The notes under the pieces: generated by a model
What the model saw: only the letters and a program-made list of their open reading frames with translations
Told to the model about the DNA's origin: nothing
Databases searched by the model: none
Translations under genes and position numbers: made by a program
Shown: positions 10,395-50,882 of the stretch, piece by piece
Layout of the letters: every line of letters begins with the position of its first letter
How positions within the stretch are numbered: the first letter of the stretch is position 1
Assembly: GCA_964349465.1 (NCBI GenBank)
Contig: CAYGGC010000001.1
Location: 33,428-97,427, forward strand
Direction of reading: 5' to 3'
DNA from: an uncultured Gammaproteobacteria bacterium
Lineage (GTDB): Bacteria; Patescibacteriota; Patescibacteriia; SBBC01; CAIJZX01
Length of the DNA stretch: 64,000 bases

Positions 10395-10561
10395 GGCGGA
10401 AGAAAATCCTGGTGAGTATAGCGAGGAACGAGAGGGTTGGCAACGCACGAGGGTAGCTTCGGAGAAGGAGGGGTAAAAAAGTCCCCCCGGCAGTCTTTTT
10501 TCTTGGTAACTCAAGACATTCTGTGGACTGATCTTAGCCAAAAAAATTAAAAAAAACGTAT

Positions 10562-10590
10562 TTGACATTCACTATCGAAAATCGTACAAT
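10562..10590 (+). promoter_or_regulatory. Consensus sigma70-type promoter TTGACA-17-TACAAT driving the giant surface-protein gene; divergent from LCP gene
   Basis: Perfect -35/-10 hexamers with 17-bp spacer; ATG 10607 lies ~10 nt after predicted TSS (short/leaderless). Confidence 0.5.
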
Positions 10591-10606
10591 ATATTTAGCA
10601 ATTTTC

Positions 10607-13600
10607 ATGGAAAAAAGAAAACTTCAACGATTTTTTTATCGGTTCTACCCCCGGCGACTGCAACGACGGAGTTTTGTTGTGTCCGCCTCGCGACGACCAG
10701 TGTTTTCCGATCTTCCGAAATTTCTCACGATCCGACAAACGGCGAAAATTCTTCATGTTCATCCAAATACGCTTCGAGCCTGGGACCGAAAAGGGAAATT
10801 GCGCGCTGTCCGTTTCGGTTCACGGCATGATCGTCGGTATTTGCGAGATGAAGTCGCGGCGGCTTGGGCGTTAACCTACGGACGTACGCCGATTGCTCGT
10901 CCGAACTTTGCTCTGCCACCACTTCGTCGGTATGCGCCGGCGCTTGGCCTGTTCTTATTGTTGCTCGGGTCTGGTTGGGCAGAGTTCTCGTCGGCCGCCA
11001 CCGAACCGGCGACCGTTGAAGTGTACGCACAACCCCGTGAATGCTCCGGTTGGGTGCAAGCGAGTGCTGCGACGAAGATTGAGCTTTCTCCAAAAAGTGA
11101 TTTCAATAAATTTAGCATCGCCAATTCAGCGCAAATACGAAGCCAAGATTTGGGCTTCACGACGGATGCTGGCGCGGCGACTGCGACGTTCGATCGTGTA
11201 GATCCTGAATTAACATGTGCACATTTCTCACTAGACGAAAAACTCACTGGTTCATTAAGCGGAACCACCGTAAGAATTTTCTTGGGTACAAACGGCCAGC
11301 TTAATTCAACCGATGCGCTGAAAGTCTCTTGGTCCCTTGATGGCAAAGACTGGGCGCTCGTTGCAACCGAGTCGGTTAAGCGAGAAGAGCAGCAACCGAT
11401 TGTCATCGATCTTCCGGCCGTCACCGACAGCCAGCGACTCGCCGATCTTCGTGTTCGCCTACAGCCTGATTTTTCCTTGAATGGAGATTCGTCGGTGTTT
11501 GTCGATGGTGTCCGTGTTGAAGCGCGTCTACATCCCCCGGAGCCGACGCCGAGTGTTCAAAGTGCCCCTGCGCGACAAAAAGAATTAGACCGATTAACGG
11601 CCTTCTCTAAAGCTAGCTACGAGTCGGATGATCAGCCGGAGGTGACCGTTCCGAAACAACAAACCAAACGACGTTTTCTATTTGGAAAAAAAGTTGAAAC
11701 GTGGAAGCTCAAAGACGTGAGCCTGATTGATAGCAAGAGCGAATCGATGTCGGTTGATTATCGATCGGTTGACCAGGTTTCCGGTGATGATACTAACGCT
11801 CGGCTTCGGTTACGTATGAGCAGCCAGCATCCGGGAAAATATATTTTACGCATCACAATGATTTCGCCGACGGGGACCATCGAAGTGGTTGAAAAAACGT
11901 TTTTGTGGGGCGTTTTAGCGGTGAATATTACTCGAGCGAACCCAGCTGTGGGTCAGACGCAGCTTGTTGGTATTGGTGTGCTGGATGATACCGGACGGAC
12001 GATTTGTGACGCATCGGTTCAGGCAACGGTAACCGACCCGAAAGGAAGAAAAACTCAGTTTGAGACAAGAAACGGATCACTCAAGACAAACCCCACCTGT
12101 GTTGATAAGGGTGTCACCAACGAGGCGGACTACCATTTCGCCCTAACGCTTGAACAGGCCGGTGTCTACCGTGTTTCGGTGACAGCAGATACAACAGTCG
12201 GCGAGCGTAAAATTGAAGAAAATTTTATTACCGAGGCGACCCAGCCGTTTACCGTCGAGCGGGTTGATTACCCGACGCGGATCTTTCCGCCAGCGGAATA
12301 TCCGGTGCGCATCGCGATCACACCGAAGAAGGATTATCTCGGCCTTGTCACGGAAGAAATCCCGACCGATTTTACAATCACCAATATTTTTCCGGCCGGG
12401 ACGCTCCGCACCGTTGGCACAACAGTCAAAAAACAATTTATTGAATGGCTGGTCGAGTGGAAAGCCGGGCAGACGTATTACCTGACGTATACGTTCGACG
12501 CACCGGATATTTCGCCGGCCTTGTTCCTAACCGGTCCGTTGACAATCGGCGGATCGTTTATCGCCGCCCCGGATTTTCAGGAATCACGCCAGTGGCAGAT
12601 TGCCTCCGACGCGATTAGCGCAAACGGTAACTTCTACTACGGCGATACGACGAACGCCGGTAAAATCAAAATGACGCCGTTCACAACCGCGTCCACCTAT
12701 GGCACTGAAGTAAACGTCAACCTTGGACCGGCGGTCAACATTATGCACGTCGTCGCGAAGACCGCCCCGACCCGGGAAGAAAAAATGATTGGCTATATTT
12801 CCGGTAACCCGACGACTGACGGTCGGCTCGATATCGTAACCGGCACGACTGGATTCGAAGCGGCCGGCGACTACACCCTTCGTTGGACCGCGACCAGCGT
12901 GACTGATGGCCAAGATTGTGACGCGGCCCCGACGGCCGGGACGTGTACCCAAGCGTTCGACCTGGGCTACGAACAGCTCTCCGGCCGCGGCCTAGTTGTT
13001 TATGCTGGTGACGCTGACGCGAGTGGCGCCCCAGATGCGGACAAAATCTATTACGCGTTGTGGGACGGTTCGGCCTGGTCACCGGACACGACCCCGAACA
13101 CCCCGAGCGCGACGAATGAACTCAGCTTGCCCGGAACCGGCGCGACACCGCGGTGGATTCGCGTCGTCCCGGCCGGCGATAACCTGGCGGATGAGCGGTC
13201 TAACCGAGCGGTCGTACTGGTGGCCGACAGTGACGACGACCTGTACGCGTACTATTGGGACGGTTCCACGTTCGACGCCGGGACCGAGCTCTTTACCACA
13301 CTCGGCAACTGCGCCTCCGCTCGCTGTTTCGACGGTAACTGGCAAGGAAATAACACTTTCATCGTCAACTACACGAACAGTGGAGTCAGCGAAGTGCGCT
13401 ACCAAAAATACTCAGTTGGTTCGGGTTGGGGCGGGGATACACAAGCCTTTACGACAGCCGCGACTCCGTCATTCCTCTTTTCTGCGGCTGATCCGACGAG
13501 CTCTCGGATCATGATTGCCAACTTTACTAGTGGTAATGATACCCGAGGCGCGGTCTGGCGAGCTGACGATGCGACTGACGGTTGGACGGTCTGCGCCTCG

Positions 13601-16600
13601 GGTGGTTGTCCGGATACGGCGGCGGAAGGTATCGGTGGACCGCAGGCCGGGATCGCATTCGAGCGATTCAGCGGCGAAGCTCTCCATGTCTTTAACGACG
13701 CCGCCAACGGTACGGCTCAGGGTAATATATACATGACGTACACACCGACCTCGACCTGGAGCGCCACCTCGACGACTGGTATTACCCCAAGCGACGACCA
13801 TCAATTCACCAAGCTGATTCCTTCACCGAACAGTGATGATATTATGGTTATCGCTGGTGACGTCGACTGCGACGTTGACGCGACAATGTGGGGTGGTTCC
13901 GCGCCGAGTACGGTTGGTTCGAACTTCGAGTTGTTGTTGTCGAGTTCGAATGGTTCATGCGCGAACTCTGTTCCGATTGCAGGCATGATGACGACGGGTG
14001 GTATTGATTTCGCTTGGAATATCTACTCCCCGTGGGGGTTGAACTGGCGGTGGACCGGCGATACGACAACGGCGAACCCGGGGTCGTACTTGGCAAACGA
14101 AAATGTGACCCCGACTGGCGTCGCTGACGCGACGACCGTTCGTTTGCGTTATGGCTTTGTGAACCGTGGGACAACGGCGCAGGCGCTTTCGGCCGAGGGC
14201 CGGAAAAAATTGCAATATACGAGTGACGACCCGGAAACGTTAACCGCGACGTGGGCTGACGTCGACGCTGATGATGGGGCCGGGATCTGGCGATATAACA
14301 ATTGTACGGCCGGAACTGACGATAGCGCGATTCCATCAGCGGTTCTGACCGCTCCGAGCGGCGGTTCAAATATCGTCGGTGATTTTATCGAAGGGTCGGG
14401 GAACATTACCCAGACCCACAGTGCCGGTCCGGCCGTCGCGATTGAAAATGATTATTGTATCGAGTCAAACGGTGCGACCGGAAGTACGACATACTATTTC
14501 CGCGCGTTTGATAACGAACAGCAGACTCCAGTCTGGCGCGAGCAAGACAACGACGGTGCGAACGACTGCGCGACCGCCGCTTGTACCTATCCAAGCTTGT
14601 CGACCGCCGCCCAGACGATTACGGTCAGTGGCACCTGCGACGCCTACGACCAAACGACGAACTGTGCCGACCTCGGTGATATCCGGGTCGCCGTCGGTGG
14701 TACGCTCCAATCTCAACTTGATACCCAGGGCGGCGGCGGACCTGGTGGCACCGACGGGACATTCTCGATCACCAGTGTTCCAAAACCTTCAGCGAACGCG
14801 ATTGTGACTGTCTTCGTTGATGGTGCGCCGGCGACGGCTAGTAATCGTGCTGTTGCGATCACTAAGTACGATGGCTCGGGTAGCATCAGCGGACTACAGT
14901 TGTTCAAAGAGCACCTAACAATCGGGTCGGCTGATACAGCCGCGACGCTAACCAGCGCGGAACTTGGATCATACGATAATTCTGTTTCGAGTAGTGACGC
15001 GGATGTTTTTCACGATTACAACGGTTCAACGACGTTTACCGTTGACTCAACCGGTTTTTCAACCCAGGAAGAACTGTATATCGGTTCCGGCTGGACCTAC
15101 CGCCCGGATTCCGGCGGCGGTGATACATTAACGACAACCAGCATCGAAATTGCGGCTGGAACATTAACCCTCGACAGCAATACGTTCAACGTCGGTGGTA
15201 GTTTCGATAACGACGGCGTTCTAACCGCCTCGACCTCGACCACGAACTTTACCGCCGCTTCCGGCACAAACACGATTGACGCCGATGGGACGGCCGCCGA
15301 GGCATTTTACAACGTTGTCTTTAATGATTCCGCTGGGTCCGCGACGTATCAACTCACGACCGTATTTGACGCGGATAATAACGTCACAATTACCGGTGGC
15401 AACTTTGACGCGAACTCGAACGCCGTGACGGTTGGCGGGAGTTGGGATAATGACGATACGTTTACGTCGGGCACGCAGACAACGACGTTTAACGCCCCCT
15501 CGGGGACCAAAACGATTGACGCTGACGGTACCGGCGCGGATTCATTTTCAAGTATCGTTTTCAATGACGCTGCCGGATCAGCAGTTTTCCAATTAACGAC
15601 CGCGATGGACGTGAATGTCGACTTGACGATCACTGGAGGAAACTTGCAGGCTCAGGGAAATCAAATTAACATTGGTGGCGTATTCGATAATGACGACACC
15701 TATACCCATGGCAACAACCTGATTGTTTTTGACGCTACGTCTGGTACGAAAAGTATGGATACTGATGGGACCGGAACCGAGGCACTCTACGATGTAACGT
15801 TTAATGACGGCGGCGGTTCAGCAACATTTGAGTTTTCCCAAGCTCTGGATATTGATCATAACGTGACTATTACGGGCGGCACCTTCTCCCGTACAGGCTC
15901 GTTTACAGTTGGGGGTAGTTGGGATAATGACGATTATTTCTTTGGGGATGGGGTTAATAATATTACCTTTGACGCGACATCCGGCACGGTGGCCATTGAC
16001 GCTCGTGGGAATTATGTTGAGTTTAGTCAGGCGGATTTTAGTATGCGGGTTGTGTTGAATGATGGCGGCGGTTCTGCGGTCTTTCAAATGACCACAGACG
16101 CGATTATTTCTAATGGTCTAGCTATTACCGGTGGCGAACTACAAGCCCAAGGACATTATATTGATCTCTGGGATGGAATTTTTGACAACGATGATACGTT
16201 TACTCACGGAAATGGCACCATCTATCTTGAAGCTAGCTCCGGAACGAACATCCACGACTTCGACGGAACCGGAACTGATGCGTTGTATAATCTTCAAATT
16301 GACGATGGCGGAGGAACGGCGACACACCAACTCTCGACCCTCCTCGACGTCGATAATAACTTAACGATTGTCGGCGGAACGCTCAACGCGAACAGTCAGG
16401 CGATCACTGTCGGTGGCAACTGGGATAACGACGATACGTTTACGTCCGGCACGGCGACCGTGACGTTCGATGCATCTGATACTGATAACACGATCGACGC
16501 TGACGGGACCGGGACGGATACGTTCTCCTCGGTGACCTTCGCAGGTGGTGATGGGAGCGGAACGTGGACTCTTACTACCGCGATGGATGTCACGGTGGCG

Positions 16601-19600
16601 ATGAATGTTGATACGAGCGATATTCTCTCGATCGATTCCGGGATGACACTCTCGCTTAATCGAACTACGACGGCCCAATCCCTGACCCTCAACGGGACAA
16701 TTCAGGGTGCCGGTCGGTTGACCTACCAACTCCCGACCAGCGTCGCAACCTTCCCGACGACCGGGACGATTAGTTCGATTTTGCGGTTTGATGCGACGAC
16801 GGACGTCCAGACCGTTCCAGAGCGAACGTATGGGGGTAATGTTGAATTGTATGAAGCGACTGGCGGGTGTGCATCCCGGACGTTTACTTTAGCTACAACC
16901 GCCGGGCAGACTCTCAACTTCAGCGGCGACCTGTCCTTGATCGAGGGTAACTGCGGCGGCGTTCCAGTGGCCGGCAATACAAATAATCCAATTGTGAACA
17001 TTACGGGTAACTTGACCCAAAACGCGAGTACGAATAGTAGCAGCATCACCGGCGGTACTCAAACCTGGACAGTTTCTGGATCAATTGATCTCCAAGATGG
17101 TGCCGCATCTTCGAGCATCACTAATCTGACCTTGAATGGTACAACAAAAACAATTGCGGTGGTCGGGTCACTTGACGTGACGGGCACCTTGACGATTGAC
17201 GGATCGTATACTGTAACTGCCAGTGCGACTAGTAATCTTTATGTTAGTGGAACCCTGATTGTTAACACCGGTAAAACTTTAGCCATCAATAGTGGCCAGT
17301 CGTTCCTCTGCGGCGGAACAGTGACACTCACCGGTACGGCACAAATATCCGGAGCCGGCACACTCACAGTCGCCTCTTCCAGCCTTGGTACTGGCGGGAC
17401 TCTTTCATCCATTGTCCGATTCGATGTATCAGGGGGTGATGTCACGATGCCAAATCGGACCTATGGTGGAGCGGTGGAGGTTTTCATGGACGATTCTGCC
17501 ACCGCCGCTCATAAGGTCATTATGGCCGGCGGAACACAAACACTACAGTCAAGTCTGTATGTCATTGATAATAGTAACACCTACAATCTCACCCTTGACG
17601 CCTCGAACGGCGGCGCGAACAACCCGACGGTTACAGTGACTGGTGATGTTGATTTTACCGGAACCGGGACGGGTTCCGAAGCGCTGATTACCGGCACGGG
17701 TACCTGGACCGTTGGTGGAAATATCGACTTTACGGGCGGGACGTTTACAGCCACGAGCGGCAACACGATGGAGATGACCGGTGCAAGTAAGACAATCACG
17801 ACGGCCGGGAGTGCACTTCATCACCTCACCGTCTCCGCGGGAAGTGTCACGGCCTCCGGAGCGACAACATTAAACGGCAATATGTTGATCTCTGGCGGGT
17901 CGTTCGCTGGTCCGGCCGCCGCGTTTAACGTCGCCGGGAACTGGACGAATTCGGGTGGTACCTATGTCGAGGGGACCGGAACAGTCACATTGAATGGCGC
18001 AACGTCAACGACGCTGAATTCTGGATGTAGTAACACGGACTCCTGCGCGAATAATAATTTTTACAACCTCGAAATTAATAAGACTGACGCGGCTGATGGA
18101 AATGACAACGTCACACTCGATACGAATGGTATCAATGTCGCGAATACGCTAACGATCACCGACGGCGAACTTGTGCAGGGCGCTCTCAATGTCCGGGCGG
18201 AAGGGGCGACGGCGGTTTCGATCGTGTCGACGGGTAAATGGAGCAATATTTCCACCGGTGACATTAAGCTCGGCGGAACGGCAACGAATAACGGGACCTG
18301 GTTGCTCGACGTTGGCGGGAATAGCGACGGTTGTGGTGGTGGTGATACCGATGATATAACCCTGACCACGACCGATGGAGCGACGCAACGATCGTTGGCT
18401 GGCTCTGGAACGTTTACTTGGTATGACGTCTCGGTCTCCTACATGAATGCGACGGTGGCGATTACGGTGAACGGCGGAACGAATGTGAGTAACAATGCCG
18501 GGAGCTTTACGTTTAATGCATGCGGTATCACCATTACCGGTACCATTTATTCTAATTCTGGCGGTGAGGCATCCGCCGTTTATAACTGCAGCTCGGATAA
18601 CCTTACTATCCATACTTCAATTTCCGGTGGCACATCGAGCAATGGAACGTGTACAGCCGTCGGCGGGACGTTCTCGATTGTTACGAACGGCCCTCCGTCA
18701 TCGGCTGGTGACCCGATCGTGTTATGGATTGATTCGGTTGAAACACCGAAGGCGACGACGGTGACCCTGGCGGCCGATACGAGTTCGAATATTTCTGGTC
18801 TCAATCTTATTCAGGATCGATTGATTCTGACGCACGAAAACGGCGGGCCGATGACGAACGCGAAATTGTCGACGGGGGATAATGGTAATGCTGGGATTCG
18901 CTATGCGGTCAGTGGCAGCAATTTGACCGTGGAAAGCGGAATGGAGCTGCATGTCGCGAGTACCAAGGCGTACACCCCGGGCGGGATGGTTACGACGACG
19001 GCTTCGGCGAGTCCATCAAGTGCGGCTGGCGATGTTCACGTCGTTGGGACAATGACGATGGGTACGTATGCGCTCTCCGTTGGCGGTGACCTAACGAACG
19101 GCGGGACGCTGTCCTTAAGCAGCGGTCAAACGACGACGATGACTGCCACCGGGTCTGGATTTACCATCACAGCCGGCGGCGCTTCATTCCAAGGCCTGAC
19201 CTTCAATGGCGCGAGCGGTGGGTGGACGAACAGTGGCGCGTTGACCGTCTCGGAAATTTGGACCGGGACGGCCGGTGGCTTCACGCAGGCCAACTCGACG
19301 ACAATAACCGTCAACGGAACCGCCTTTAGTTTGGCGAACGGCTTTACCTGGACGAAAGCAACGAGCGGCGCGAATTTGATCCTGGAGAATGCGACGAATC
19401 TCGATTTTACTGATAGCAATACAACCAAACAAGACCTCGGTGCCGTTCAGATCGGCGCCAGTCCCGGCGTGACAACGCTAAAGTCGGATATGAGCGCGAC
19501 GACCGTGACAATCCCAACGAGCGATACACTCAATACCAAGGGCTGGGACATTACGGCCAGCGGCGCGTTCGACTGTCAGGGGACCTGCACCTTAAACCTG

Positions 19601-27124: not shown

Positions 27125-27164
27125 GAGTAATGGTCAAGAGGGAGGGCTACGGAGTGACCCCCTT

Positions 27165-27193
27165 TTGACGTTTCCTAAAAATTGTGCTATACT
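27165..27193 (+). promoter_or_regulatory. Promoter TTGACG-17-TATACT upstream of the 360-aa secreted protein gene
   Basis: Good -35/-10 with 17-bp spacer, 70 bp upstream of ATG 27265. Confidence 0.45.
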
Positions 27194-27264
27194 ACATACA
27201 TATCAACATATCCCCTAAAGGCTGGGGATTTAAAAACCCATATTTTTAGCCAAAAAACACACTC

Positions 27265-28347: not shown

Positions 28348-28386
28348 TCGGTCGATCTTTCATCCGACATTTTAACGCCAAACGCC

Positions 28387-29391
28387 ATGCGCCAACGCAC
28401 TGCTCTCCTCGTCTCGCTCAGTGTGTTCCTCGCCGGCGTTTTTGGTGTTGGTTCGGCTCAGGCGCTAACGCTTGTTCCCCCGAGTCTTGAATACACATCA
28501 GCGAAGGGTCAGGTTATTGAGTCACGCGTCAAATTATTGAACAATGAAAATCGGACGCTGGTTTTGACACCCTCCACCGCCAATTTCGGCGCGAAAGATG
28601 AAACTGGCGAACCGGATTTTAAGTTTGACGCGCCTTCAGCTGATCTCTCAGCTTGGATCCAGATTGATAAAGCGCAATTAACACTTGATCCGGGTGAAAC
28701 AAAAGAAGTCCCGTTTACGATCGCCGTTCCGACCGACGCTGAACCAGGTGGTCATTACGCTGGGATTTTTTTCGCCAGCGGTGGCACGGCCACTGGTGGT
28801 GGACAAATCGGGGTTCAGTCGAAGCTCGGGACCCTTGTCATTTTGACGGTTGACGGGAATATTCGTGAACAAGCGGCCATTAGCTCGGTTAAACTTGACG
28901 GTCCTTCAAGCTTGAGCCGTCCTCCAGTCAACCTGAATGTACGAATTAAGAACAGCGGTAACGTTCATGTGAAACCAAAAGGCAAGGTCACTATTTTAAA
29001 TATGTTTGGTGGGGAAGTTGAAACGATTACCCTCCCGCAGGACAAGAATGTGTTGCCGGGCCAAACACGTCTCTTTGAAGTGTCTTGGGCGAAACGTTCG
29101 ACCGAGGCGAAGAAAGGAAATTTCTTCCAAGAAATTGGCGCTGAATTCTCTAACTTCGCACTTGGAACATACACGGCAAACGTTGAAGCAACCTATGGGC
29201 AAAACGATAAAACGATGATTGGGAAGGTCCAATTCGTGATTATCCCATGGCACGCTCTATTAGTTCTGTTCTTGGGCTTAGTGCTGATCATCATCGTCTT
29301 TACGGTTGGTCTCAAATCCTACAATCAAATGGTGATTCGCAAGGCGCAGGCCGCGATGACCAAATCGACGCCGCCGGAAATAAAGAAATAA
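28387..29391 (+). CDS. Cell-surface protein with signal peptide and C-terminal TM anchor + short basic tail; architecture resembles DUF916/DUF3324 (CscA-like) proteins of WxL loci
   Basis: Signal peptide, beta-rich ectodomain, C-terminal helix IIPWHALLVLFLGLVLIIIVFTVGL then KSYNQMVIRKAQ…. Confidence 0.75.
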   Translation: MRQRTALLVSLSVFLAGVFGVGSAQALTLVPPSLEYTSAKGQVIESRVKLLNNENRTLVLTPSTANFGAKDETGEPDFKFDAPSADLSAWIQIDKAQLTLDPGETKEVPFTIAVPTDAEPGGHYAGIFFASGGTATGGGQIGVQSKLGTLVILTVDGNIREQAAISSVKLDGPSSLSRPPVNLNVRIKNSGNVHVKPKGKVTILNMFGGEVETITLPQDKNVLPGQTRLFEVSWAKRSTEAKKGNFFQEIGAEFSNFALGTYTANVEATYGQNDKTMIGKVQFVIIPWHALLVLFLGLVLIIIVFTVGLKSYNQMVIRKAQAAMTKSTPPEIKK

Positions 29392-29397
29392 ATATCG

Positions 29398-30252
29398 ATG
29401 GGGTGGAGATCGTTAACGATCCGTGGGGCGCTGATCTTAATCAGCGTTTTTACGATTTTTTCCTGGCCGAGTGACGCCAAGGCATTTGATGTTACAGTGA
29501 CGGCGACGGTTGTTGATGAAAGTTCGACGCCCCCGGCAAATCCGGTTGTTGAGTTTAAGGGCGTGGCAGCGCCACGAGGTGTGGTGTCGGTGGCGCGAAA
29601 TGGTGTAGTGATTATGACAAGTCCAACCGGCGATTCGGCAGCGTTTGATATTGTAATCGCCGATCAACCAGTAGGTCAGCAGATCTACGATATTACGGCG
29701 GTTGACAATGATGGGCGGTCGTTAACGCCGATGACCTTTGCACTAAATCTCAGCCTTGGTTCAACGACGATTATTCTCGGAATTTTTCTCGGGCCATCCA
29801 TCACGATTGATAAACCGGAAGTGAAGTTGGGCGAAACCGTAACCGTGGCCGGTGCGACGTTGCCGAACAGTACGGTGACCGTGACGGTGAATTCAGTCCA
29901 GGTCAAAAACTATAGTTTTTTGGCCGACGCGAATGGTCGGTGGCAGAAAGATATCAATACCGCCGATATTGGAGTTGGTAGTCATACCGCGAAGGCGCAA
30001 GCGACGATGTCTGGAACTGGCGTATCGGAATTTAGTTCGAGCGTCGCGTTCGCGGTCAACCCCCTCGGACAATGCGATGCAAAAAAAAGTTCCGATTTGA
30101 ACTGTGACGGACGGGTGAACTTAACGGACTTTAGTATCTTGTTATTCTTCTGGCAGCAGCGAAATCCGGCGAATGCTCGGGCTGACGTTAACGCCGATAG
30201 CCGGGTGACCATCGTTGATTTTAGTATCATGTTGTTCCAATGGACCGGATAA
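29398..30252 (+). CDS. Secreted Ig-like protein with C-terminal type-I dockerin module (two Ca-binding repeats)
   Basis: DLNCDGRVNLTDFSILLFFW and DVNADSRVTIVDFSIMLFQW = canonical DxNxDGxVNxxD dockerin repeats. Confidence 0.8.
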   Translation: MGWRSLTIRGALILISVFTIFSWPSDAKAFDVTVTATVVDESSTPPANPVVEFKGVAAPRGVVSVARNGVVIMTSPTGDSAAFDIVIADQPVGQQIYDITAVDNDGRSLTPMTFALNLSLGSTTIILGIFLGPSITIDKPEVKLGETVTVAGATLPNSTVTVTVNSVQVKNYSFLADANGRWQKDINTADIGVGSHTAKAQATMSGTGVSEFSSSVAFAVNPLGQCDAKKSSDLNCDGRVNLTDFSILLFFWQQRNPANARADVNADSRVTIVDFSIMLFQWTG

Positions 30253-31358
30253 TTCTTCGTGGAGCTATACTCGGACTGGCGCTGTTTGTGCTTCAGGTTC
30301 CAGCTGTTCGTGCAGTTGGACCAGCGGTTCGGTTAGTTGGACCATCTGGACAAGTTGAAGCTGGAACTATCTGGCCAGTTGAGGTCCGAGTTGATACCGC
30401 CGGCCTGAATATCAACGCAGCAGAGATTCATTTGTCGGTCATCGGGGTGGGCACGGAAATTACTCGCTTGGGTCGCGAATCATCGATTTTAACGCTCTGG
30501 CCAGAAGTCCCGAGTATCAATGCCGCGACAGCCAAATTTGTTGGTGGGCGACCAGGCGGGGTCGTCGCCGTCGACGCGCTCGTCGGAACGATGTTTGTTG
30601 TTGCTCGCCAGGCCGGTCCGGTGACGATCAACCTGAACTCGGTCACGAGTGGATTGTACCGGCACGATGGTAACGGTACGCGCGTCCAAACTGAGCCTGC
30701 TAGCCTTGAGGTGCAAGTGGCGGACGATCTGGTGCCGGCGTTAGCAATTACCTCGACGACCCATCCAACCGAATCGACCTGGGGCCGAGTTGGGGAAATT
30801 GATGTCGCGTGGGAAGCGTTGCCAGACGAGCAGTTTAGTTACCGACTTTCTAATGATATTGGGGTAGTTCCAGACGATGACATCGATAGCGGTCTCGTTC
30901 CGTTGCGGTTTGATGGACTCGACGATGGGGTCTGGTACTTCGTGATCAAACGCCGCTTACCTGGAGAACCATGGTCATCGGTTTTTCAACGACGCTTCCT
31001 ACTTGATCGAACTCCGCCGGAACCGTTCACTGTTCGTCAACCAGCTTCAAAAACAGTTGCCGGCCGCGCCCTCCTGACTTGGACCGCCTTGGACCGGACC
31101 GCTGGCGTGACGGCCTATCAGGCTACGGTCAACGGACGCGTGGTTGGGGAAGTTGTTAGTCCGTTGGCCCTTCATCCAGATTGGCGTGGTCAGACAATTC
31201 AGATCGTGGCGATCGATGCGGCCGGAAATCAGCGCCTGAGCGAGCCGTGGTTGTACGGGAAACGCCAAGTGGCTATGCCGTGGTGGGCTTGGACCGTGAT
31301 TGGTGTAGTTTTTCTGGGACTCGTCTTCGAGGTCGGTCGCGTAGTCCGACGTCGTTAG
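30240..31358 (+). CDS. Cohesin-domain protein paralog 1: signal peptide, cohesin-like N-domain, Fn3-like middle domain, C-terminal TM anchor
   Basis: Cohesin-like N-domain (…LVGPSGQVEAGTIWPVEVRVDTAGLNINAAEIHLSV…); DRTPPEPFTV; C-terminal TM WWAWTVIGVVFLGLVF. Confidence 0.75.
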   Translation: MDRIILRGAILGLALFVLQVPAVRAVGPAVRLVGPSGQVEAGTIWPVEVRVDTAGLNINAAEIHLSVIGVGTEITRLGRESSILTLWPEVPSINAATAKFVGGRPGGVVAVDALVGTMFVVARQAGPVTINLNSVTSGLYRHDGNGTRVQTEPASLEVQVADDLVPALAITSTTHPTESTWGRVGEIDVAWEALPDEQFSYRLSNDIGVVPDDDIDSGLVPLRFDGLDDGVWYFVIKRRLPGEPWSSVFQRRFLLDRTPPEPFTVRQPASKTVAGRALLTWTALDRTAGVTAYQATVNGRVVGEVVSPLALHPDWRGQTIQIVAIDAAGNQRLSEPWLYGKRQVAMPWWAWTVIGVVFLGLVFEVGRVVRRR

Positions 31359-31383
31359 CTATTTTGTGGTATACTCATAGCCT

Positions 31384-32769
31384 ATGGAGGCGCGTCGAGG
31401 CATGGTTTATCGAGCGGTCGCCTGGCGCAGCGGAGTCATCGTTAGCGCCATGCTCTGGTGCTTTTTTGCGAACACGCACTCAGCGCATGCTGCCGCCTCA
31501 TTAAAAATTACCCCCGCCTCAGGGACGTACGAGGTGGGAGCGTTGGTTGACGTTTCCTTCTTACTTGATACGGGCGGAGATGCCGTGAACGCGGTTCAGG
31601 CCGACATTCAATTTCCGGCCGATAAGTTACAGGTTGTGAATCCAGTCGCGAGCACCTCGTTTATTTCCGTCTGGGTCACAACGCCGACCTATTCGAATAC
31701 TGACGGGACTTTAAAGTTTCAGGGCGGCTTACCAAGTCCAGGGATTAAAACGAGCGGTGGTGTTATTAGTACCGTTTCATTTCGTGTGAAGGCGGCGGGT
31801 CGTGCGACGATTACGTTCGCATCCACCTCAAAAGTTTTACGGAACGATGGTGAGGGAACAAATATTCTTAGTTCAACCGGGACGGCGGATTTTACCTTGA
31901 AAGTCCCGCCGCCTGAGGGTCCGGTGGTAAAAAGCCCAACCCATGGTGATCTCAATCGTTGGTACAATTCCCCCCAAGTCCAGTTTGTGTGGGACTCGGT
32001 CGACGGTGCGAGTGGCTACAGTTATTCCTTCGATCAGAACGCGAAAGTAACCCCTGACGAAACGATTGAAGGAATAACAGCGGCCACCAGCATGAAGGCG
32101 ACTGGGGATGGTGTATGGTTTTTTCATATCCGAGCGAAGACGGACACCTGGGGCGGAACGACGAGTTTTCCGGTCCAAATCGATACGACCCCGCCGGCCA
32201 GTTTTACGCCCACGTTTGATCATGACCTGATTACCATCGAAGATGTTGGGACCCTGCGGTTTGTTACGACCGACGGCGCTTCAGGTCTTGATTACTATGA
32301 AGTAAAGCAGGTCACCTTGACCGGGGATGCGGCGACAAATAGTTTGTTTGTGGAATCGAGCAGTCCTTACGTTATCCCAAAACTGGGAGCAGGAAAATAT
32401 GAATTTATCGTGCGTGCATTCGACCGCGCCGGAAATACAACCGAAGGCAAGGGGCAGCTGGAAGTTATTGCTAGCGGCGTGCCCTTCTATGCCCGAGTTC
32501 CGATCCTGCGCGACCCAGCGGTGGCAAACGGGGCGCTTGTTGTCCTGGGATCGCTCTTTGTCGGGGCCGCTTCGATGCTGGTCCTTCGGCGGGTCCGTGT
32601 CCGTTCAACCTTCCAGCATGATTTTGAGCGGCTCGAACGAGACGCGCATCGAAAGGCTGAGCAACTGCAACGCGAACTTGAACAGCTGCGTTCGGCCCAG
32701 CGACTGGTGCAGAGTGATCTTGGGCCCGACCCCGGACTATCTCCTCAGCCTCATCAGCCGCCACGATGA
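31384..32769 (+). CDS. Cohesin-domain protein paralog 2 (cohesin + Fn3-like + TM + coiled-coil/Pro-rich cytoplasmic tail)
   Basis: ASLKITPASGTYEVGALVDVSFLLDTGGDAVNAVQADIQFPADKLQVV cohesin signature; paralogous to neighbours. Confidence 0.8.
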   Translation: MEARRGMVYRAVAWRSGVIVSAMLWCFFANTHSAHAAASLKITPASGTYEVGALVDVSFLLDTGGDAVNAVQADIQFPADKLQVVNPVASTSFISVWVTTPTYSNTDGTLKFQGGLPSPGIKTSGGVISTVSFRVKAAGRATITFASTSKVLRNDGEGTNILSSTGTADFTLKVPPPEGPVVKSPTHGDLNRWYNSPQVQFVWDSVDGASGYSYSFDQNAKVTPDETIEGITAATSMKATGDGVWFFHIRAKTDTWGGTTSFPVQIDTTPPASFTPTFDHDLITIEDVGTLRFVTTDGASGLDYYEVKQVTLTGDAATNSLFVESSSPYVIPKLGAGKYEFIVRAFDRAGNTTEGKGQLEVIASGVPFYARVPILRDPAVANGALVVLGSLFVGAASMLVLRRVRVRSTFQHDFERLERDAHRKAEQLQRELEQLRSAQRLVQSDLGPDPGLSPQPHQPPR

Positions 32770-34421
32770 AATATTTTTTTACCATCCTTATCAGCGTATT
32801 TGCGAGTCTACTGACGACGTCGTTTGCTTCGGCCGCGACGCTGTCACTCAGTCCGGCATCGACTACGACACAGGTCGGCCAAACGGTTGTGACGACTGTG
32901 CGCGTGAACGCGGCTGGGACGACGATCAACGCGGCTGAGGCGACAATTTCTTTTCCGTCGGATCTGTTGAAGTTGGTTAGCGTGAGTAAGTCGGGCACGA
33001 TCTTTAAGTTTTGGACCGTTGAACCGAGCGGCTCGAATAGTTCTGCGCGGGTCATTTTTTCTGGTGGTTTGCCGAGTCCAGGCTATTCCGGCAGCGCTGG
33101 GACGATTGTCAAAGTTACGTGGCAGGCCTTAGCAGTGGGAACAGCAAACATCTCCGTGACTGGCGGGAAAGTGTTGGCGAATGATGGGCTAGGCACGAAT
33201 GTTCTCACCGGACAGTCTGGTGCGTCATACACGATTCAAGCAACCACGACGATCCCAACCAAGCCGACTGGTCCGGTTGCGCCAGCATTGAGTTCGCCGC
33301 AGTTTTCTAGTCAGCAGCAGTGGTACGCCGAAAAAAATGCCACTATTACGTGGACCCGACCGACCGGCATTGAAGGGGTAAGTTATGAATTGAATCGTGA
33401 GTCTACCACGGTGCCAGACGAGACGTTTGAAAATAATTCCGGCAGTACAACAGTAGAGTTAACCGAAGATGGGGCTTGGTATTTTCATCTGCGAGCGAAA
33501 TACGCGACGGGCTGGAGCAGTGTTGCTCGATTAAAGCTACAGCGCGATACGACGCCGCCGGAACCGTTTGAGATTTCGGTTGAACGAGATCGTGGCTTAG
33601 CTGACCCGAGCCCGACGCTCTCGTTTGCCGCGACGGATGGATTGAGCGGTATTGTTGGGTATACCGCGGCGGTCAATGGATTGCCCGGGGTGCCGGTGAC
33701 GAGTCCGTATACAATGACGGTTGAGCAGGCTGGTGAATACCACGTGGTCATCACCGCCACTGATGGCGCTGGCAACTCCCGGGCGAGCGATGTGACGTTT
33801 TCGGTTGAAGGGTATGCGGTTCCGAAAATAACATATGTTTCCACGCCCCTTATCCTTCTGCAGACCCTGACCGTCCGTGGTACGGCTCAGGCTGGGGATC
33901 AGGTCAATATCTTTCTCGATGGCGAATTACTGGACTCAACCTACGCCGGTGCCCCCAATGTCGCGGCAACTGATGGTACCAACGTACGGCTGACCTGGAA
34001 TTTTACATCTGAAAAAACATTTAGCCCTGGTAAACATCGTTTAACCGTTACTGCTACCGGTGCCGACGGGCAAACAAGCTTGGCGAGCGATCCAGTAACT
34101 TTTTTCGTTCGTGGCACAACACTTGAGTTTAACGGACGCCCGATTGCGACCTTTGCGGCGATACCGATTCTTGGTATCGCGATGATTCTGTTTTTCACCT
34201 TGATCGCCTTTGTGATGAGCCAGCTCTGGATGACCACTCGTCGACTTGAGCGCCGGGAAAAGGTTGTTGACCAGGAACTTCAGGAGCTTCGGACGGCGGT
34301 AGAAAAAGGTCATGTTCCAGACACAGCGCTGAAACAGGCGATCACCATGATTGACGATGATCTCGTTGGGCGTCGACGGACTCCGAAGCGCGCACCGCGA
34401 CGGCGTACAAAAAAAACATGA
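32766..34421 (+). CDS. Cohesin-domain protein paralog 3 (cohesin + Fn3-like + Ig-like + TM + basic tail)
   Basis: ATLSLSPASTTTQVGQTVVTTVRVNAAGTTINAAEATISFPSDLLKLVSV cohesin signature; 4-bp overlap with paralog 2. Confidence 0.8.
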   Translation: MKYFFTILISVFASLLTTSFASAATLSLSPASTTTQVGQTVVTTVRVNAAGTTINAAEATISFPSDLLKLVSVSKSGTIFKFWTVEPSGSNSSARVIFSGGLPSPGYSGSAGTIVKVTWQALAVGTANISVTGGKVLANDGLGTNVLTGQSGASYTIQATTTIPTKPTGPVAPALSSPQFSSQQQWYAEKNATITWTRPTGIEGVSYELNRESTTVPDETFENNSGSTTVELTEDGAWYFHLRAKYATGWSSVARLKLQRDTTPPEPFEISVERDRGLADPSPTLSFAATDGLSGIVGYTAAVNGLPGVPVTSPYTMTVEQAGEYHVVITATDGAGNSRASDVTFSVEGYAVPKITYVSTPLILLQTLTVRGTAQAGDQVNIFLDGELLDSTYAGAPNVAATDGTNVRLTWNFTSEKTFSPGKHRLTVTATGADGQTSLASDPVTFFVRGTTLEFNGRPIATFAAIPILGIAMILFFTLIAFVMSQLWMTTRRLERREKVVDQELQELRTAVEKGHVPDTALKQAITMIDDDLVGRRRTPKRAPRRRTKKT

Positions 34422-35122
34422 ACACCTCGTCAAATGTGTGGCTGGTTATTCCGACCTATAATGAGCGGTCGAACCTTGAGGCGCTTGTCCGGCGGATTAC
34501 CACCGCTGGCTCATGGAATATTCTGATTGTTGACGATGCGTCGCCGGACGGGACGGGCGCGTTGGCTGATGATTTGTCACAACGTTGGCCGCAGTTGGCT
34601 GTCCTCCATCGACCGAAGAAGGAAGGACTTGGCCCGGCCTATCGGCATGGCCTACGTGAAGCGCTTGATCGAGGGGCAGAGCTCGTGATTCAGAGCGACG
34701 CGGACTTATCGCATCCACCGGAACTGATTCCGACGATGATTGAGCGCCTTCAGACGACTGATCTCGTTATTGCCTCACGATATGTGGCGGGCGGTCGAAT
34801 GAATATTGGTTGGCAGCGGCGCTGGATTAGTTTGATTGGGAACGTCTACATTCGATTCATGCTGGGTTGGTCGGTTCGAGACTGGAGTACTGGGTTTAAG
34901 GGTTGGCAGGCGGGGATGCTCGATCAGGTTCTGAAAGCGCCATTACGAACCTCCGGCTATGCTTGCTTAATGGAGATGACGTGGTGGGCAAGAAAGTTCG
35001 GTGGGCGAGTCGCCGAGGTACCGCTTGATTTTGTTGATCGGACAGCCGGCGACTCAAAATTTTCCATCCGTATTATTCTTGAGGATATCAAGATGGCCTG
35101 GGAATTGCGTTGGCGACGGTAA
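34418..35122 (+). CDS. GT2 polyprenyl-phosphate mannosyltransferase (Dpm1-like dolichol-/undecaprenyl-phosphate mannose synthase)
   Basis: LVIPTYNERSNL…IVDDASPDGT…QSDADLSHPP motifs; translationally coupled to cohesin paralog 3. Confidence 0.9.
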   Translation: MNTSSNVWLVIPTYNERSNLEALVRRITTAGSWNILIVDDASPDGTGALADDLSQRWPQLAVLHRPKKEGLGPAYRHGLREALDRGAELVIQSDADLSHPPELIPTMIERLQTTDLVIASRYVAGGRMNIGWQRRWISLIGNVYIRFMLGWSVRDWSTGFKGWQAGMLDQVLKAPLRTSGYACLMEMTWWARKFGGRVAEVPLDFVDRTAGDSKFSIRIILEDIKMAWELRWRR

Positions 35123-35265: not shown

Positions 35266-35342
35266 GGTCGCATAGCTCAGTTGGTTAGAGCGTTCCGTTC
35301 ACATCGGAAAGGTCCCTGGTCCGAGTCCAGGTGCGACCACCA
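35266..35342 (+). tRNA. tRNA-Val (anticodon CAC), CCA encoded
   Basis: Manual cloverleaf: acceptor GGTCGCA/TGCGACC, D-arm GCTC…GAGC, anticodon stem TTCCG/CGGAA loop TTCACAT, T-arm CCTGG-TCCGAGT-CCAGG, discriminator A, CCA. Confidence 0.9.
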
Positions 35343-38705: not shown

Positions 38706-38730
38706 ATCAATTCAAAACTCTTCCCGTTTC

Positions 38731-44810: not shown

Positions 44811-44821
44811 CCACCACGCCT

Positions 44822-50880: not shown

Positions 50881-50882
50881 CT

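What the first reader, a model, noticed from the sequence alone, without database searches (positions are those of the whole stretch)
10395..35122. Approximately 24.5-kb cell-surface locus: giant protein + WxL-like/DUF916-like pair + dockerin + three cohesin paralogs + GT2
Eight consecutive co-directional genes encode only secreted or membrane-anchored products. (a) A 5.5k-aa repeat-rich giant protein. (b) A 360-aa secreted protein whose C-terminal domain is homologous to the giant protein's C-terminus. (c) A 334-aa protein with signal peptide and C-terminal TM anchor. (d) A dockerin-bearing Ig-like protein. (e) Three tandem paralogs, each cohesin + Fn3-like + C-terminal TM. (f) A Dpm1-like GT2, possibly for protein/glycan mannosylation. 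The layout combines two known surface-assembly logics. Cohesin-dockerin docking would pair the three membrane-anchored cohesin receptors with one dockerin ligand. A CscA/CscB/CscC-like (DUF916 + small WxL + large WxL) arrangement, known from Firmicutes, appears around the giant protein. Such a composite has not, to my knowledge, been described around a giant protein in CPR-like genomes.
Basis: partly seen in the sequence, partly recalled or inferred. Interest (0 to 1): 0.78.

Follow-up and report, generated by a model that had tools for sequence, protein, structure and literature searches.

The report
CPR pilus locus with dockerin anchor
This is a conserved operon of ultra-small (CPR/Patescibacteria) bacteria for a recently discovered "Pam" pilus. 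In this version the tip appears to be a 5,505-residue adhesin, and the base appears to be plugged into the membrane through a cohesin-dockerin pair.

Summary

The core is not a WxL cluster by sequence. It is a Pam-type donor-strand pilus system, described in CPR bacteria in a 2026 preprint and already modelled in NCBIfam. Both C-terminal domains score above that model's cutoff. The 334-aa protein folds like E. faecium WxLIP and chaperone-usher chaperones.

Three things are new:
- The order giant / pilin / chaperone / dockerin protein / cohesin proteins recurs in 28 of 55 informative species loci. Dockerin and cohesin genes almost always occur together.
- The dockerin protein is a pilin derivative. 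It keeps the pilin donor strand (VxVTATV) and has lost the acceptor domain. The giant keeps the acceptor and lacks the strand.
- The giant's export signal carries a conserved DNA-binding HTH domain.

Inferred model: giant tip, pilin shaft, dockerin-bearing terminator, membrane cohesin anchors. No binding was tested. Verdict: a new variant of a known kind.

The parts
10562..10590 (+). Promoter-like site TTGACA-17 nt-TACAAT, 17 nt upstream of the giant gene's ATG
   Evidence: Read directly from the sequence. Function was not tested.
10607..27124 (+). Giant protein, 5,505 aa. Proposed role: pilus tip adhesin.
   Evidence: ORF. Repeats cover 71% of residues. Laminin_G_3 scores 86 bits. Homologues of 2,300-6,500 aa have the same N- and C-termini.
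10712..10852 (+). N-terminal cytoplasmic HTH_17/MerR-type DNA-binding domain of the giant (aa 36-82)
   Evidence: Pfam HTH_17 31.3 bits against 27; MerR_1 25.9 against 21.6. The region aligns in 15 representative clusters and was read directly in six fetched sequences.
10931..10996 (+). Single hydrophobic span (aa 109-127) followed by SSA|A. Proposed role: signal-anchor with a signal-peptidase site.
   Evidence: Sequence. Small residues at -3/-1 are kept in six homologues. The L012 homologue has an ordinary signal peptide at the equivalent point. Cleavage is inferred.
21503..21973 (+). LamG / concanavalin-like lectin domain inside the giant
   Evidence: Pfam PF13385, E=3.4e-24
26645..27121 (+). 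C-terminal Pam pilin CTD (truncated Ig acceptor) of the giant, not preceded by a donor/linker strand
   Evidence: NF058581 65.4 bits against 55. BLASTP to the pilin, E=6e-23, with a 5-residue gap where the pilin has its linker. No linker motif in any giant homologue examined.
27265..28347 (+). Pam-type pilin, 360 aa: signal peptide, N-terminal beta-sandwich, linker, C-terminal acceptor domain
   Evidence: NF058581 59.7 bits against 55. AF2 pLDDT 87.7. 428 homologues.
27838..27870 (+). Pilin linker SVNVTATVDPS (aa 192-202). Proposed role: donor strand.
   Evidence: It sits in one of the best conserved blocks of alignment A2. It is not in a strand in the monomer model, and pLDDT is lower there. 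In the Pam cryo-EM structures the equivalent linker fills the neighbour's CTD.
28387..29391 (+). Membrane-anchored two-Ig-domain chaperone (PamC/D-like, WxLIP-like), 334 aa, with a C-terminal TM helix at aa 288-309
   Evidence: AF2 pLDDT 90.3. Foldseek: WxLIP 9i1y/9i25 E~1e-11, then RbmA, then CfaA/CsuC/FimC/Caf1M. PF06030 21.9 bits, below its cutoff.
29398..30252 (+). Dockerin protein, 284 aa: signal peptide, N-terminal strand, Pro-rich spacer, two Ig domains, dockerin. Proposed role: pilus terminator and adaptor.
29485..29520 (+). Mature N-terminal strand FDVTVTATVVDE, carrying the same VxVTATV motif as the pilin linker
   Evidence: The motif is present in 33 of 37 dockerin-protein ORFs (34 of 36 orthologous loci once long forms are counted) against 10 of 794 background ORFs.
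30091..30231 (+). Type I dockerin with two intact Ca-binding loops (DLNCDGRVNLTD, DVNADSRVTIVD)
   Evidence: PF00404 35.8 bits against 22.9. 33 of 33 scanned family members (window protein plus 32 orthologues) hit. It is the only dockerin in the window.
30240..31358 (+). Cohesin paralogue 1, 372 aa: signal peptide, cohesin-like domain, Fn3/Ig domains, C-terminal TM (aa 348-366)
   Evidence: No Pfam hit itself. 23 of 31 scanned family members hit Cohesin. The family profile hits ScaB cohesin 4ums, E=1.8e-3.
31384..32769 (+). Cohesin paralogue 2, 461 aa: cohesin at aa 41-166, TM at aa 381-401, charged cytoplasmic tail
   Evidence: PF00963 27.1 bits against 24.1; alignment A3
32766..34421 (+). 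Cohesin paralogue 3, 551 aa: cohesin at aa 29-140, extra Ig domains, TM at aa 463-488, charged tail
   Evidence: PF00963 25.6 bits against 24.1; Big_13 27.5 bits
34418..35122 (+). Soluble Dpm1-type GT2 (polyprenyl-phosphate hexose synthase-like). An accessory gene, present in only some related loci.
   Evidence: PF00535 97 bits. PDB 5mlz, E=2.9e-31. Present in nine related GTDB loci.

Best explanation
The locus encodes a Pam-type pilus: a chaperone-dependent, usher-less, donor-strand-exchange pilus of a Kerfeldbacteria-like CPR bacterium. It is a previously undescribed variant.

Shown:
- The giant and the 360-aa protein both end in the Pam pilin acceptor domain.
- The 334-aa protein is a membrane-anchored chaperone of the PapD/WxLIP fold.
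- The dockerin protein carries the pilin donor-strand motif at its mature N-terminus and has no acceptor domain.
- Three paralogues are cohesin-Fn3-TM proteins.
- All of these genes travel together across species.

Inferred mechanism:
1. All components are exported by Sec.
2. The membrane-tethered chaperone caps the open groove of each acceptor domain.
3. The giant has a groove but no donor strand, so it can only sit at the distal tip, in a FimH/PapG-like topology. Its lectin and repeat regions act as the adhesin.
4. Pilins add at the base. Each inserts its VxVTATV linker into the groove of the previous subunit.
5. The dockerin protein inserts the same strand into the last pilin. It has no groove of its own, so it terminates growth, like PapH or PamR.
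6. Its Ca-dependent dockerin then plugs into the membrane-anchored cohesins and fixes the fibre to the cell.
7. The Dpm1-like GT2 may supply lipid-linked sugar for glycosylating the Thr/Ser-rich subunits.
8. The HTH-bearing signal anchor of the giant is probably cut off by signal peptidase and left in the membrane.
For: Identity of the parts:
- NF058581 scores above cutoff on both CTDs.
- The Pam system is defined by cryo-EM in M. amalyticus.
- The chaperone model has pLDDT 90. Its top matches are WxLIP and chaperone-usher chaperones.

Polarity logic:
- Pilins carry the linker motif directly before the CTD, and giants never do.
- 33 of 37 dockerin-protein ORFs carry the motif right after the signal peptide, against 1.3% of background ORFs.
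- Long dockerin variants begin with a full pilin N-domain plus linker, E=1e-51 to 1e-32 against pilins. The family is therefore a pilin whose acceptor domain was replaced by Ig-Ig-dockerin.

Coupling:
- Of 55 loci with enough downstream sequence, 28 have dockerin plus cohesin genes, 1 has the dockerin gene only, and 0 have cohesin genes only.
- Most checked dockerin/cohesin loci have a giant directly upstream of the pilin.
- CTD-only PamT-like proteins as the sole tip candidate occur in 10 loci, none with dockerin/cohesin genes.
- Six of the 55 loci that lack dockerin/cohesin genes instead encode, at the same position, one 745-1,230-aa protein with a pilin N-domain plus a hydrophobic segment; in five of the six that segment lies in the C-terminal part. 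Three of the six also carry the linker motif. This looks like a fused equivalent.

Domains:
- Dockerin hits 33 of 33 scanned family members and Cohesin hits 23 of 31.
- Both dockerin Ca loops are intact.
Against: - No physical interaction was tested or modelled. No multimer prediction was available.
- The NCBIfam scores are only 5-10 bits above cutoff, and the PamT equivalog is far below its cutoff.
- The pilin model's structure searches return generic Ig-fold adhesins and pilins, not a specific pilin class.
- The N-terminal strand of the dockerin protein could be an ordinary edge strand rather than a donor strand.
- The Pam preprint reports a different anchor (PamR) and is itself not peer reviewed.
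- There is one dockerin for two or three conserved, non-identical cohesin proteins. Simple anchoring does not explain this.
- The closest solved relative of the chaperone (WxLIP) is proposed to hold WxL proteins statically, not to polymerise them.
- GT2 is missing from many related loci.
Confidence: 0.6

Rival explanations
1. A static WxL/Csc-type surface complex with no filament. The 334-aa WxLIP-like protein stays bound to the C-terminal domains of the giant and of the 360-aa protein and simply displays them on the membrane, as proposed for Firmicutes WxL clusters. The cohesin-dockerin proteins would be a separate display module.
For: - The best solved-structure match is WxLIP, including the entry 'WxLIP bound to long WxL'.
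- The composition of one WxLIP-like protein plus a small and a large protein sharing a C-terminal domain fits the WxL cluster definition.
- PF06030 gives a sub-threshold hit, and one homologue has a precomputed PF06030 hit.
Against: - There is no WxL Pfam hit, and the conserved C-terminal signature has no W-x-L motif.
- The 360-aa protein has the two-domain Pam pilin layout with a highly conserved linker. Relatives of this family form filaments by cryo-EM.
- The dockerin protein carries the same strand motif and, in its long forms, a whole pilin N-domain. A separate-module view does not predict this.
Confidence: 0.2
2. A cellulosome-like or general cohesin-dockerin scaffold. The membrane cohesins would recruit dockerin-bearing enzymes or adhesins encoded elsewhere in the genome for glycan binding or degradation on the host cell, with the pilus genes merely neighbouring.
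For: - The cohesin and dockerin domains are genuine.
- There are two or three distinct cohesin proteins but only one local dockerin.
- A dockerin-domain protein is essential in the epibiont Southlakia and was interpreted as glycan-targeting.
Against: - No CAZyme or other catalytic domain occurs in the locus.
- The dockerin and cohesin genes are locked to the pilin-chaperone pair in 28 loci. They are replaced by a fused pilin-N-domain/hydrophobic-segment protein in six others.
- The dockerin protein is a pilin derivative.
Confidence: 0.1
3. The giant is a membrane-anchored fibre rather than a tip. Its N-terminal TM is not cleaved, so it stays tethered by the HTH-TM end. Its distal C-terminal acceptor domain would then nucleate a short pilin chain or capture the dockerin protein, giving an inverted arrangement.
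For: - The N-terminal region has a long cytoplasmic domain and a single TM, like a type II anchor.
- Cleavage was not tested.
Against: - Small -3/-1 residues follow the TM in all seven sequences examined.
- A homologue has an ordinary cleavable signal peptide at the same point.
- In this arrangement the dockerin end would point away from the membrane cohesins.
Confidence: 0.1

Closest known systems
Pam pilus of Candidatus Mycosynbacter amalyticus (PamA/B/E pilins, PamT tip, PamC/D chaperones, PamR anchor). Source: bioRxiv 10.64898/2026.03.03.709456 and NCBIfam NF058579/NF058581.
   Same: - CPR-restricted.
[quoted passage not shown]
- A PapD-like chaperone with a C-terminal TM helix, and no usher.
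- A tip subunit that has the acceptor domain but no linker.
- A base subunit that donates an N-terminal strand.
   Different: - The tip is a 5,505-aa repeat/lectin protein instead of a ~240-aa PamT.
- There is one pilin and one chaperone instead of three and two.
- The single RbmA-like PamR is replaced by a soluble strand-Ig-dockerin protein plus two or three cohesin-Fn3-TM proteins.
- The giant has an HTH-bearing signal anchor.
- The lineage is Kerfeldbacteria-like rather than Saccharimonadia or Microgenomatia.
- The neighbours are tRNA-Val, signal peptidase and HisRS rather than ATP synthase.
- The preprint mentions none of cohesin, dockerin, giant or WxL.
WxL / Csc cell-surface clusters of Firmicutes (WxLIP = DUF916+DUF3324+TM, a small WxL protein and a large WxL protein). 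Sources: Siezen 2006; Hassan 2023, PMC10599100; PDB 9i1y and 9i25.
   Same: - A ~335-aa protein with a signal peptide, two Ig domains and a TM helix. It is the best structural match.
- A partner pair of a small and a large protein sharing a C-terminal domain.
- A predicted strand insertion from the membrane protein into that domain.
   Different: - The shared domain is not Pfam WxL, and its conserved C-terminal signature has no W-x-L motif.
- PF06030 is below its cutoff, and DUF3324 gives no hit.
- WxL proteins are thought to bind peptidoglycan non-covalently and are not known to polymerise.
- No cohesin or dockerin genes are reported in those clusters.
Chaperone-usher pili of Gram-negative bacteria (Fim/Pap, and the archaic Csu and CFA/I types)
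   Same: - The chaperone fold matches CfaA, CsuC, FimC and Caf1M, E~1e-8 to 1e-7.
- The donor-strand logic is the same.
- The two-domain tip adhesin topology is the same: a binding part N-terminal and a pilin domain C-terminal, as in FimH and PapG.
- A terminator lacks the capacity for further exchange, as PapH does.
   Different: - There is no usher and no outer membrane.
- The chaperone is membrane-tethered.
- The donor strand is an internal linker between two domains rather than an N-terminal extension, except in the dockerin protein.
- Anchoring is proposed to be by cohesin-dockerin.
Cellulosomal and non-cellulosomal cohesin-dockerin systems
   Same: - A type I dockerin with two Ca-binding repeats.
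- Cohesin modules on cell-anchored scaffold proteins.
   Different: - The anchors are single-cohesin TM proteins, not SLH- or sortase-anchored multi-cohesin scaffoldins.
- The only local dockerin sits on a pilin-derived protein, not on an enzyme.

Membership tests
Pam pilus system (CPR) | Pilin subunits ending in the Pam C-terminal truncated Ig domain (NCBIfam NF058581) | tested here: met
   59.7 bits (360-aa protein) and 65.4 bits (giant C-terminus) against a cutoff of 55. The domain lies at the extreme C-terminus in all but one detected homologue, a weak partial hit.
Pam pilus system (CPR) | Two-domain pilin with a conserved linker strand between the N-terminal sandwich and the CTD | tested here: met
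   The AF2 model shows two beta domains with an exposed segment at aa 185-202. The linker DDSVxVTATVDPS is among the most conserved blocks. Its donor function is inferred from the preprint.
Pam pilus system (CPR) | PapD/FimC-like chaperone carrying a C-terminal TM helix (PamC/PamD) | tested here: met
   pLDDT 90 model with helix 288-325. Foldseek hits to chaperone-usher chaperones and WxLIP. No NCBIfam Pam chaperone model matched.
Pam pilus system (CPR) | PamT tip pilin (equivalog NF058579: single CTD, no linker) | tested here: not met
   19-21 bits against a cutoff of 240. The giant has the CTD-without-linker property but is not a PamT orthologue.
Pam pilus system (CPR) | PamR: one RbmA-like 2xFnIII protein with an N-terminal strand and a C-terminal TM | tested here: inconclusive
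   No single such gene is present. The strand sits on the dockerin protein and the Fn3+TM on the cohesin proteins. The M. amalyticus sequences could not be fetched for a direct comparison.
Pam pilus system (CPR) | Assembly into extracellular helical filaments | not testable with these tools
   Needs microscopy or biochemistry.
WxL / Csc cluster | At least two proteins with a Pfam WxL domain (PF13731) carrying dual W-x-L motifs | tested here: not met
   The 360-aa protein has no Pfam family at E<=1. The giant shows only HTH and LamG. The C-terminal signature reads ...YSTD(I/L)TY(I/V)xTxTF.
WxL / Csc cluster | WxLIP: DUF916 (PF06030) + DUF3324 (PF11797) + TM helix | tested here: inconclusive
   PF06030 scores 21.9 bits, below its 27.3 cutoff, and PF11797 gives no hit. 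The family profile hits EfmWxLIP1 at E=0.03. The fold and architecture match best of all PDB entries.
Cohesin-dockerin pair | Type I dockerin with two Ca-binding repeats | tested here: met
   PF00404 35.8 bits against 22.9. Loops DLNCDGRVNLTD and DVNADSRVTIVD are intact. 33 of 33 scanned family members hit.
Cohesin-dockerin pair | Cohesin module (PF00963) | tested here: met
   27.1 and 25.6 bits against 24.1 for two paralogues. The third is supported by 23 of 31 scanned family members and by a profile hit to ScaB cohesin.
Cohesin-dockerin pair | Ca-dependent binding between the two modules | not testable with these tools
   There is only co-occurrence: 28 loci with both, 1 with the dockerin gene only, 0 with cohesin genes only.
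Chaperone-usher pilus | Outer-membrane usher | tested here: not met
   No usher family appears in any locus product. CPR cells lack an outer membrane (established knowledge).
Dpm1-type polyprenyl-phosphate glycosyltransferase | GT2 catalytic domain closest to Dol-P-Man synthase | tested here: met
   PF00535 97 bits. 5mlz matches at E=2.9e-31 over the catalytic domain only. All NCBIfam equivalogs are far below cutoff, so sugar and lipid specificity are unknown.

The most novel reading that the evidence does not exclude
CPR bacteria outside the Saccharimonadia build an usher-less donor-strand pilus with three unusual features:
- The base is held non-covalently in the membrane by a cohesin-dockerin plug.
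- The tip is a multi-thousand-residue adhesin.
- The tip adhesin's cleaved signal anchor is a membrane-tethered HTH transcription factor, which would couple export of the adhesin to gene regulation.

The same evidence implies that CPR Pam pili, Firmicutes WxL clusters and Gram-negative chaperone-usher pili are branches of one ancient chaperone/strand-complementation family.
Probability: 0.2. Interest if true: 0.85.

Novelty: new variant of a known kind. Interest (0 to 1): 0.62.

Why it matters
CPR bacteria live attached to host cells, and how they hold on is largely unknown.

- If the model is right, it gives a testable architecture for the attachment organelle of a large, uncultivated part of the radiation.
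- It assigns a role to the giant genes common in these genomes.
- It shows cohesin-dockerin used as a structural anchor for a pilus rather than for enzyme display.
- It links three systems studied separately: Pam, WxL and chaperone-usher.
- The dockerin-cohesin split, set against the fused pilin-N-domain anchor protein found in other lineages, is a natural experiment supporting the base-anchor role.
- The HTH-in-signal-peptide family would be a new way to tie a DNA-binding domain to secretion.

Tried and rejected
- Pfam and NCBIfam gave no WxL hit for either C-terminal domain, so I dropped WxL membership.
- I looked for a PamR/PamC/PamD match in NCBIfam and found none.
- The pilin family profile found nothing meaningful in PDB sequences.
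- I considered the HTH-giant fusion an assembly or frameshift artefact. I rejected this because 15 representative clusters (each a 50%-identity cluster) align across the HTH region, and five full-length sequences I read show the whole HTH-TM-giant-CTD architecture.
- I considered the 334-aa protein to be PamR-like, because RbmA ranks high. I rejected this because its TM-scores to RbmA (0.23) are much lower than to WxLIP and chaperone-usher chaperones (0.37-0.41).
- Promoter and terminator scans inside the operon were no better than shuffled controls.
- A homology search with the dockerin-protein profile returned no named cultivated Saccharibacteria. Orthology to the essential Southlakia dockerin gene therefore stays open.
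- My custom CTD HMM missed the window's own giant, probably because of HMMER's bias filter. NCBIfam and BLASTP do detect it.

Full report
OBSERVATION

The window carries eight consecutive + strand ORFs from the giant gene to the GT2 gene. Three junctions overlap by 13, 4 and 4 nt. A tRNA-Val gene at 35266-35342 follows the GT2 gene, then signal peptidase I and HisRS. The surroundings are housekeeping genes of a small-genome bacterium: TopA, DprA, Mfd, Pth, an LCP ligase, FtsA, FtsZ, NrdR and a class II RNR.

The TTG at 10562 that opens the mechanical ORF is the -35 hexamer of a TTGACA-17-TACAAT site. The first ATG is at 10607, giving a 5,505-aa product. That product is 16.5% Thr, 12% Gly and 10% Ser. 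Residues 1376-5375 (71% of the protein) consist of internal repeats at 35-56% identity.

WHAT THE PARTS ARE

- Dockerin_1 scores 35.8 bits against a cutoff of 22.9.
- Cohesin scores 27.1 and 25.6 bits against 24.1 in the 461- and 551-aa proteins.
- GT2 scores 97 bits.
- WxLIP_PGBD (DUF916) scores 21.9 bits in the 334-aa protein, below its 27.3 cutoff.

The 372-aa protein has no hit of its own. It is a clear paralogue, and 23 of 31 scanned members of its family alignment hit Cohesin. The family profile finds a cellulosomal cohesin (4ums, E=1.8e-3) and a chitinase Fn3 domain.

The giant shows an N-terminal HTH_17/MerR domain and a LamG domain. The GT2 is closest to the catalytic domain of Pyrococcus Dol-P-Man synthase (5mlz, E=2.9e-31), so 'Dpm1-like' is fair.

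The key result is from NCBIfam. The C-terminal ~130 residues of both the 360-aa protein and the giant match NF058581, 'Pam pilus system pilin subunit', above cutoff (59.7 and 65.4 bits against 55). The two domains are 37% identical (E=6e-23). Neither has any WxL hit.

WHAT IS KNOWN ABOUT PAM PILI

A 2026 preprint (10.64898/2026.03.03.709456) solved filaments of the CPR parasite Mycosynbacter amalyticus by cryo-EM. Its main points:
- The linker of one subunit fills the groove of its neighbour.
- PamC and PamD are PapD-like chaperones with a C-terminal TM helix.
- PamT has only the acceptor domain and is placed at the tip.
- PamR is RbmA-like, with an N-terminal strand and a C-terminal TM. It is proposed to terminate and anchor the fibre.

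The preprint never mentions WxL, cohesin, dockerin or giant proteins.

THE CHAPERONE AND THE WxL QUESTION

An AF2 model of the 334-aa protein (36-sequence alignment, pLDDT 90.3) shows a signal peptide, two beta-sandwich domains and a long C-terminal helix.

Foldseek against the PDB ranks E. faecium WxLIP first (9i1y, and 9i25 'bound to long WxL'; E~1e-11, TM 0.39-0.51). RbmA comes next with poor TM-scores (0.23). Then come the chaperone-usher chaperones CfaA, CsuC, FimC, Caf1M and DraB. The family profile also touches EfmWxLIP1 by sequence (E=0.03).

The published WxLIP description is a signal peptide, two Ig domains and a TM helix in a 337-365-aa protein, with a strand predicted to insert into the WxL domain. 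That is the same design.

The partner domain, however, belongs to the Pam family rather than to Pfam WxL. Pam, WxL and chaperone-usher systems may be distant relatives. I could not test the CTD-WxL relationship directly.

SYNTENY

A profile of the chaperone recovered 78 loci from species-representative genomes. By their titles most are Patescibacteria: Kerfeldbacteria (best, 50% identity), Uhrbacteria, Microgenomatus, Moranbacteria and Saccharimonadales, plus several MAGs with implausible non-CPR labels.

I screened six-frame ORFs with the window proteins. Of 55 loci with at least 4.5 kb downstream of the chaperone:
- 28 have both a dockerin-protein gene and one or more cohesin-TM genes, in the window's order.
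- 1 has only the dockerin gene.
- 0 have only cohesin genes.

The ancestral set appears to be one short (~380 aa) and one long cohesin protein. The window's lineage has duplicated the long one. GT2 follows in nine related GTDB loci. Signal peptidase and HisRS follow in many.

Most checked dockerin/cohesin loci have a gene of more than 2,200 aa directly upstream of the pilin, usually truncated by my 10-kb flank. That gene ends in a Pam-type CTD. L014 is an exception, and L016 and L040 have shorter proteins with the same ending.

POLARITY EVIDENCE

In the pilin family, one of the best conserved blocks is the linker and first CTD strand, DDSVxVTATVDPSITFSISDTTIGFG. In the monomer model that linker is unstructured and less confident.

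I used the pattern [VIL]x[VI][STG][AG]xV to track the linker:
- Most 340-380-aa pilins carry it just before the CTD.
- No giant does. In giants the CTD follows a conserved Cys-containing segment, and the BLAST alignment shows a gap where the linker would be.
- 33 of 37 dockerin-protein ORFs carry it at residues 31-69, immediately after the signal peptide and before a Pro-rich spacer. Background is 10 of 794 ORFs.
- Two of the four exceptions (L006 and L009) are long forms of 437-444 aa. In these the motif sits near residue 190, after a domain homologous to the pilin N-domain. A third long form (L050) shares that N-domain but lacks a strict motif match. E-values against pilins are 1e-51 to 1e-32.

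The dockerin protein family is therefore a pilin in which the acceptor domain has been replaced by Ig-Ig-dockerin.

Two more observations fit this:
- Loci in which a small CTD-only (PamT-like) protein is the sole tip candidate never have dockerin/cohesin genes (0 of 10).
- Six of the 55 loci that lack dockerin/cohesin genes encode, at the same position, one 745-1,230-aa protein with a signal peptide and a pilin N-domain. Five of the six have a hydrophobic segment in the C-terminal part, and three carry the linker motif. This looks like a fused equivalent of the split dockerin-plus-cohesin pair.

MECHANISM (INFERRED)

1. The giant has a groove but no strand, so it can only occupy the distal end, like FimH, PapG or PamT.
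2. Pilins polymerise beneath it by linker insertion, handed over by the membrane-tethered chaperone.
3. The dockerin protein has a strand but no groove. It caps the proximal end and docks, through an intact two-loop type I dockerin, onto the membrane-anchored cohesins.
4. The window holds exactly one dockerin and three cohesins.

None of these contacts was modelled or measured. The need for two or three distinct cohesin proteins is unexplained.

THE HTH DOMAIN

The giant begins with an HTH_17/MerR domain (aa 36-82), one hydrophobic span (aa 109-127) and the sequence SSA|A.

This is not an artefact. A search of 1.8 billion representative proteins found 15 clusters (each a 50%-identity cluster), with members of 343-6,524 aa, that align from about residue 1 across the HTH. 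Of six sequences I read, five are full-length and have the HTH, a TM with small -3/-1 residues, the giant body and a Pam CTD. The sixth is a 538-aa fragment with the same N-terminus.

A homologue in L012 has an ordinary signal peptide at the equivalent position. A Saccharimonadales-type locus (L059) has an 85-aa stand-alone HTH homologue next to its pam genes. I infer a cleavable signal anchor with a DNA-binding N-region. Its function is unknown.

VERDICT

The claim of no precedent is overtaken by the Pam preprint and by NCBIfam.

What remains new is a conserved variant of the Pam system with a giant tip, a pilin-derived dockerin terminator, membrane cohesin anchors and an HTH-bearing signal anchor. 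I found no description of this combination. It is a new variant of a known kind, supported by sequence and comparative evidence only.

Noticed in passing
window 10712-10996: The giant surface protein starts with a cytoplasmic HTH_17/MerR DNA-binding domain, then a single TM and an AxA-like site. The region aligns in 15 representative clusters with members of 343-6,524 aa. The whole HTH-to-CTD architecture was read directly in five full-length sequences. A DNA-binding domain inside what looks like a cleavable signal anchor is unusual.
   Followed up: partly
window 10562-10590: A near-consensus sigma-70-type site (TTGACA, 17 nt, TACAAT) lies 17 nt before the giant's ATG. It overlaps the annotated start of the divergent LCP-family ORF (8868-10568, - strand), so that ORF's real start is probably further in.
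   Followed up: no
window 35266-35342: ARAGORN calls a tRNA-Val (CAC) between the GT2 and signal peptidase genes. The Rfam gathering-threshold scan of the whole window reported no family at all, not even tRNA.
   Followed up: no
window 38662-45925: A second large secreted protein (1,887 aa) has an N-terminal T4SS_pilin domain (PF18895) and Big_5 repeats. It is followed by a 162-aa TSP3-repeat protein and a 367-aa protein with no credible Pfam hit. This may be a separate surface or type IV secretion-related module.
   Followed up: no
window 49381-52430: Two tandem DUF2079 polytopic membrane proteins. My own recollection, not tested here, is that this family is thought to be GT-C-like. If so, they could use the lipid-linked sugar made by the Dpm1-like GT2 to glycosylate the Thr/Ser-rich pilus proteins.
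   Followed up: no
window 53253-56759: The class II ribonucleotide reductase is unusually long (1,168 aa). Its barrel domain matches in two stretches, and it has a C-terminal TSCPD domain. This could be an insertion or an intein.
   Followed up: no
L023 14471-16620; L044 14472-16618; L036 7038-9181: Some related loci carry a second pilin-chaperone pair downstream of the cohesin genes. That second pilin did not match the strict linker motif.
   Followed up: no
L026 11043-14597; L030 4130-7465; L037 2424-5972; L039 11002-14319; L049 11019-14393; L071 10827-14519; L027 5735-8059; L066 4034-6271: In loci without dockerin/cohesin genes, the gene after the chaperone often encodes a 745-1,230-aa protein with a signal peptide and a pilin N-domain. 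Most have a hydrophobic segment in the C-terminal part (seven of the eight listed) and about half carry the linker motif. This looks like a fused base anchor. Six of these loci fall among the 55 with enough downstream sequence.
   Followed up: partly
L005, L009, L014, L019, L021, L049 and others (record titles): Several MAGs carrying this CPR-specific locus are titled Gammaproteobacteria, Pirellulales, Methylomirabilis or FCPU426. These are probably mislabelled or contaminated bins.
   Followed up: no
literature (PMC10633639): A dockerin-domain protein (SEML1_0315) is essential for the epibiotic growth of the cultivated Saccharibacterium Southlakia epibionticum. Whether it is an orthologue of the pilus dockerin protein found here was not established.
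   Followed up: partly
L015, L016, L018, L019, L020, L028, L033, L034, L040, L047, L057: Many related loci have two chaperone paralogues (~305-315 aa and ~333 aa), as M. amalyticus has PamC and PamD. The window has only one.
   Followed up: no
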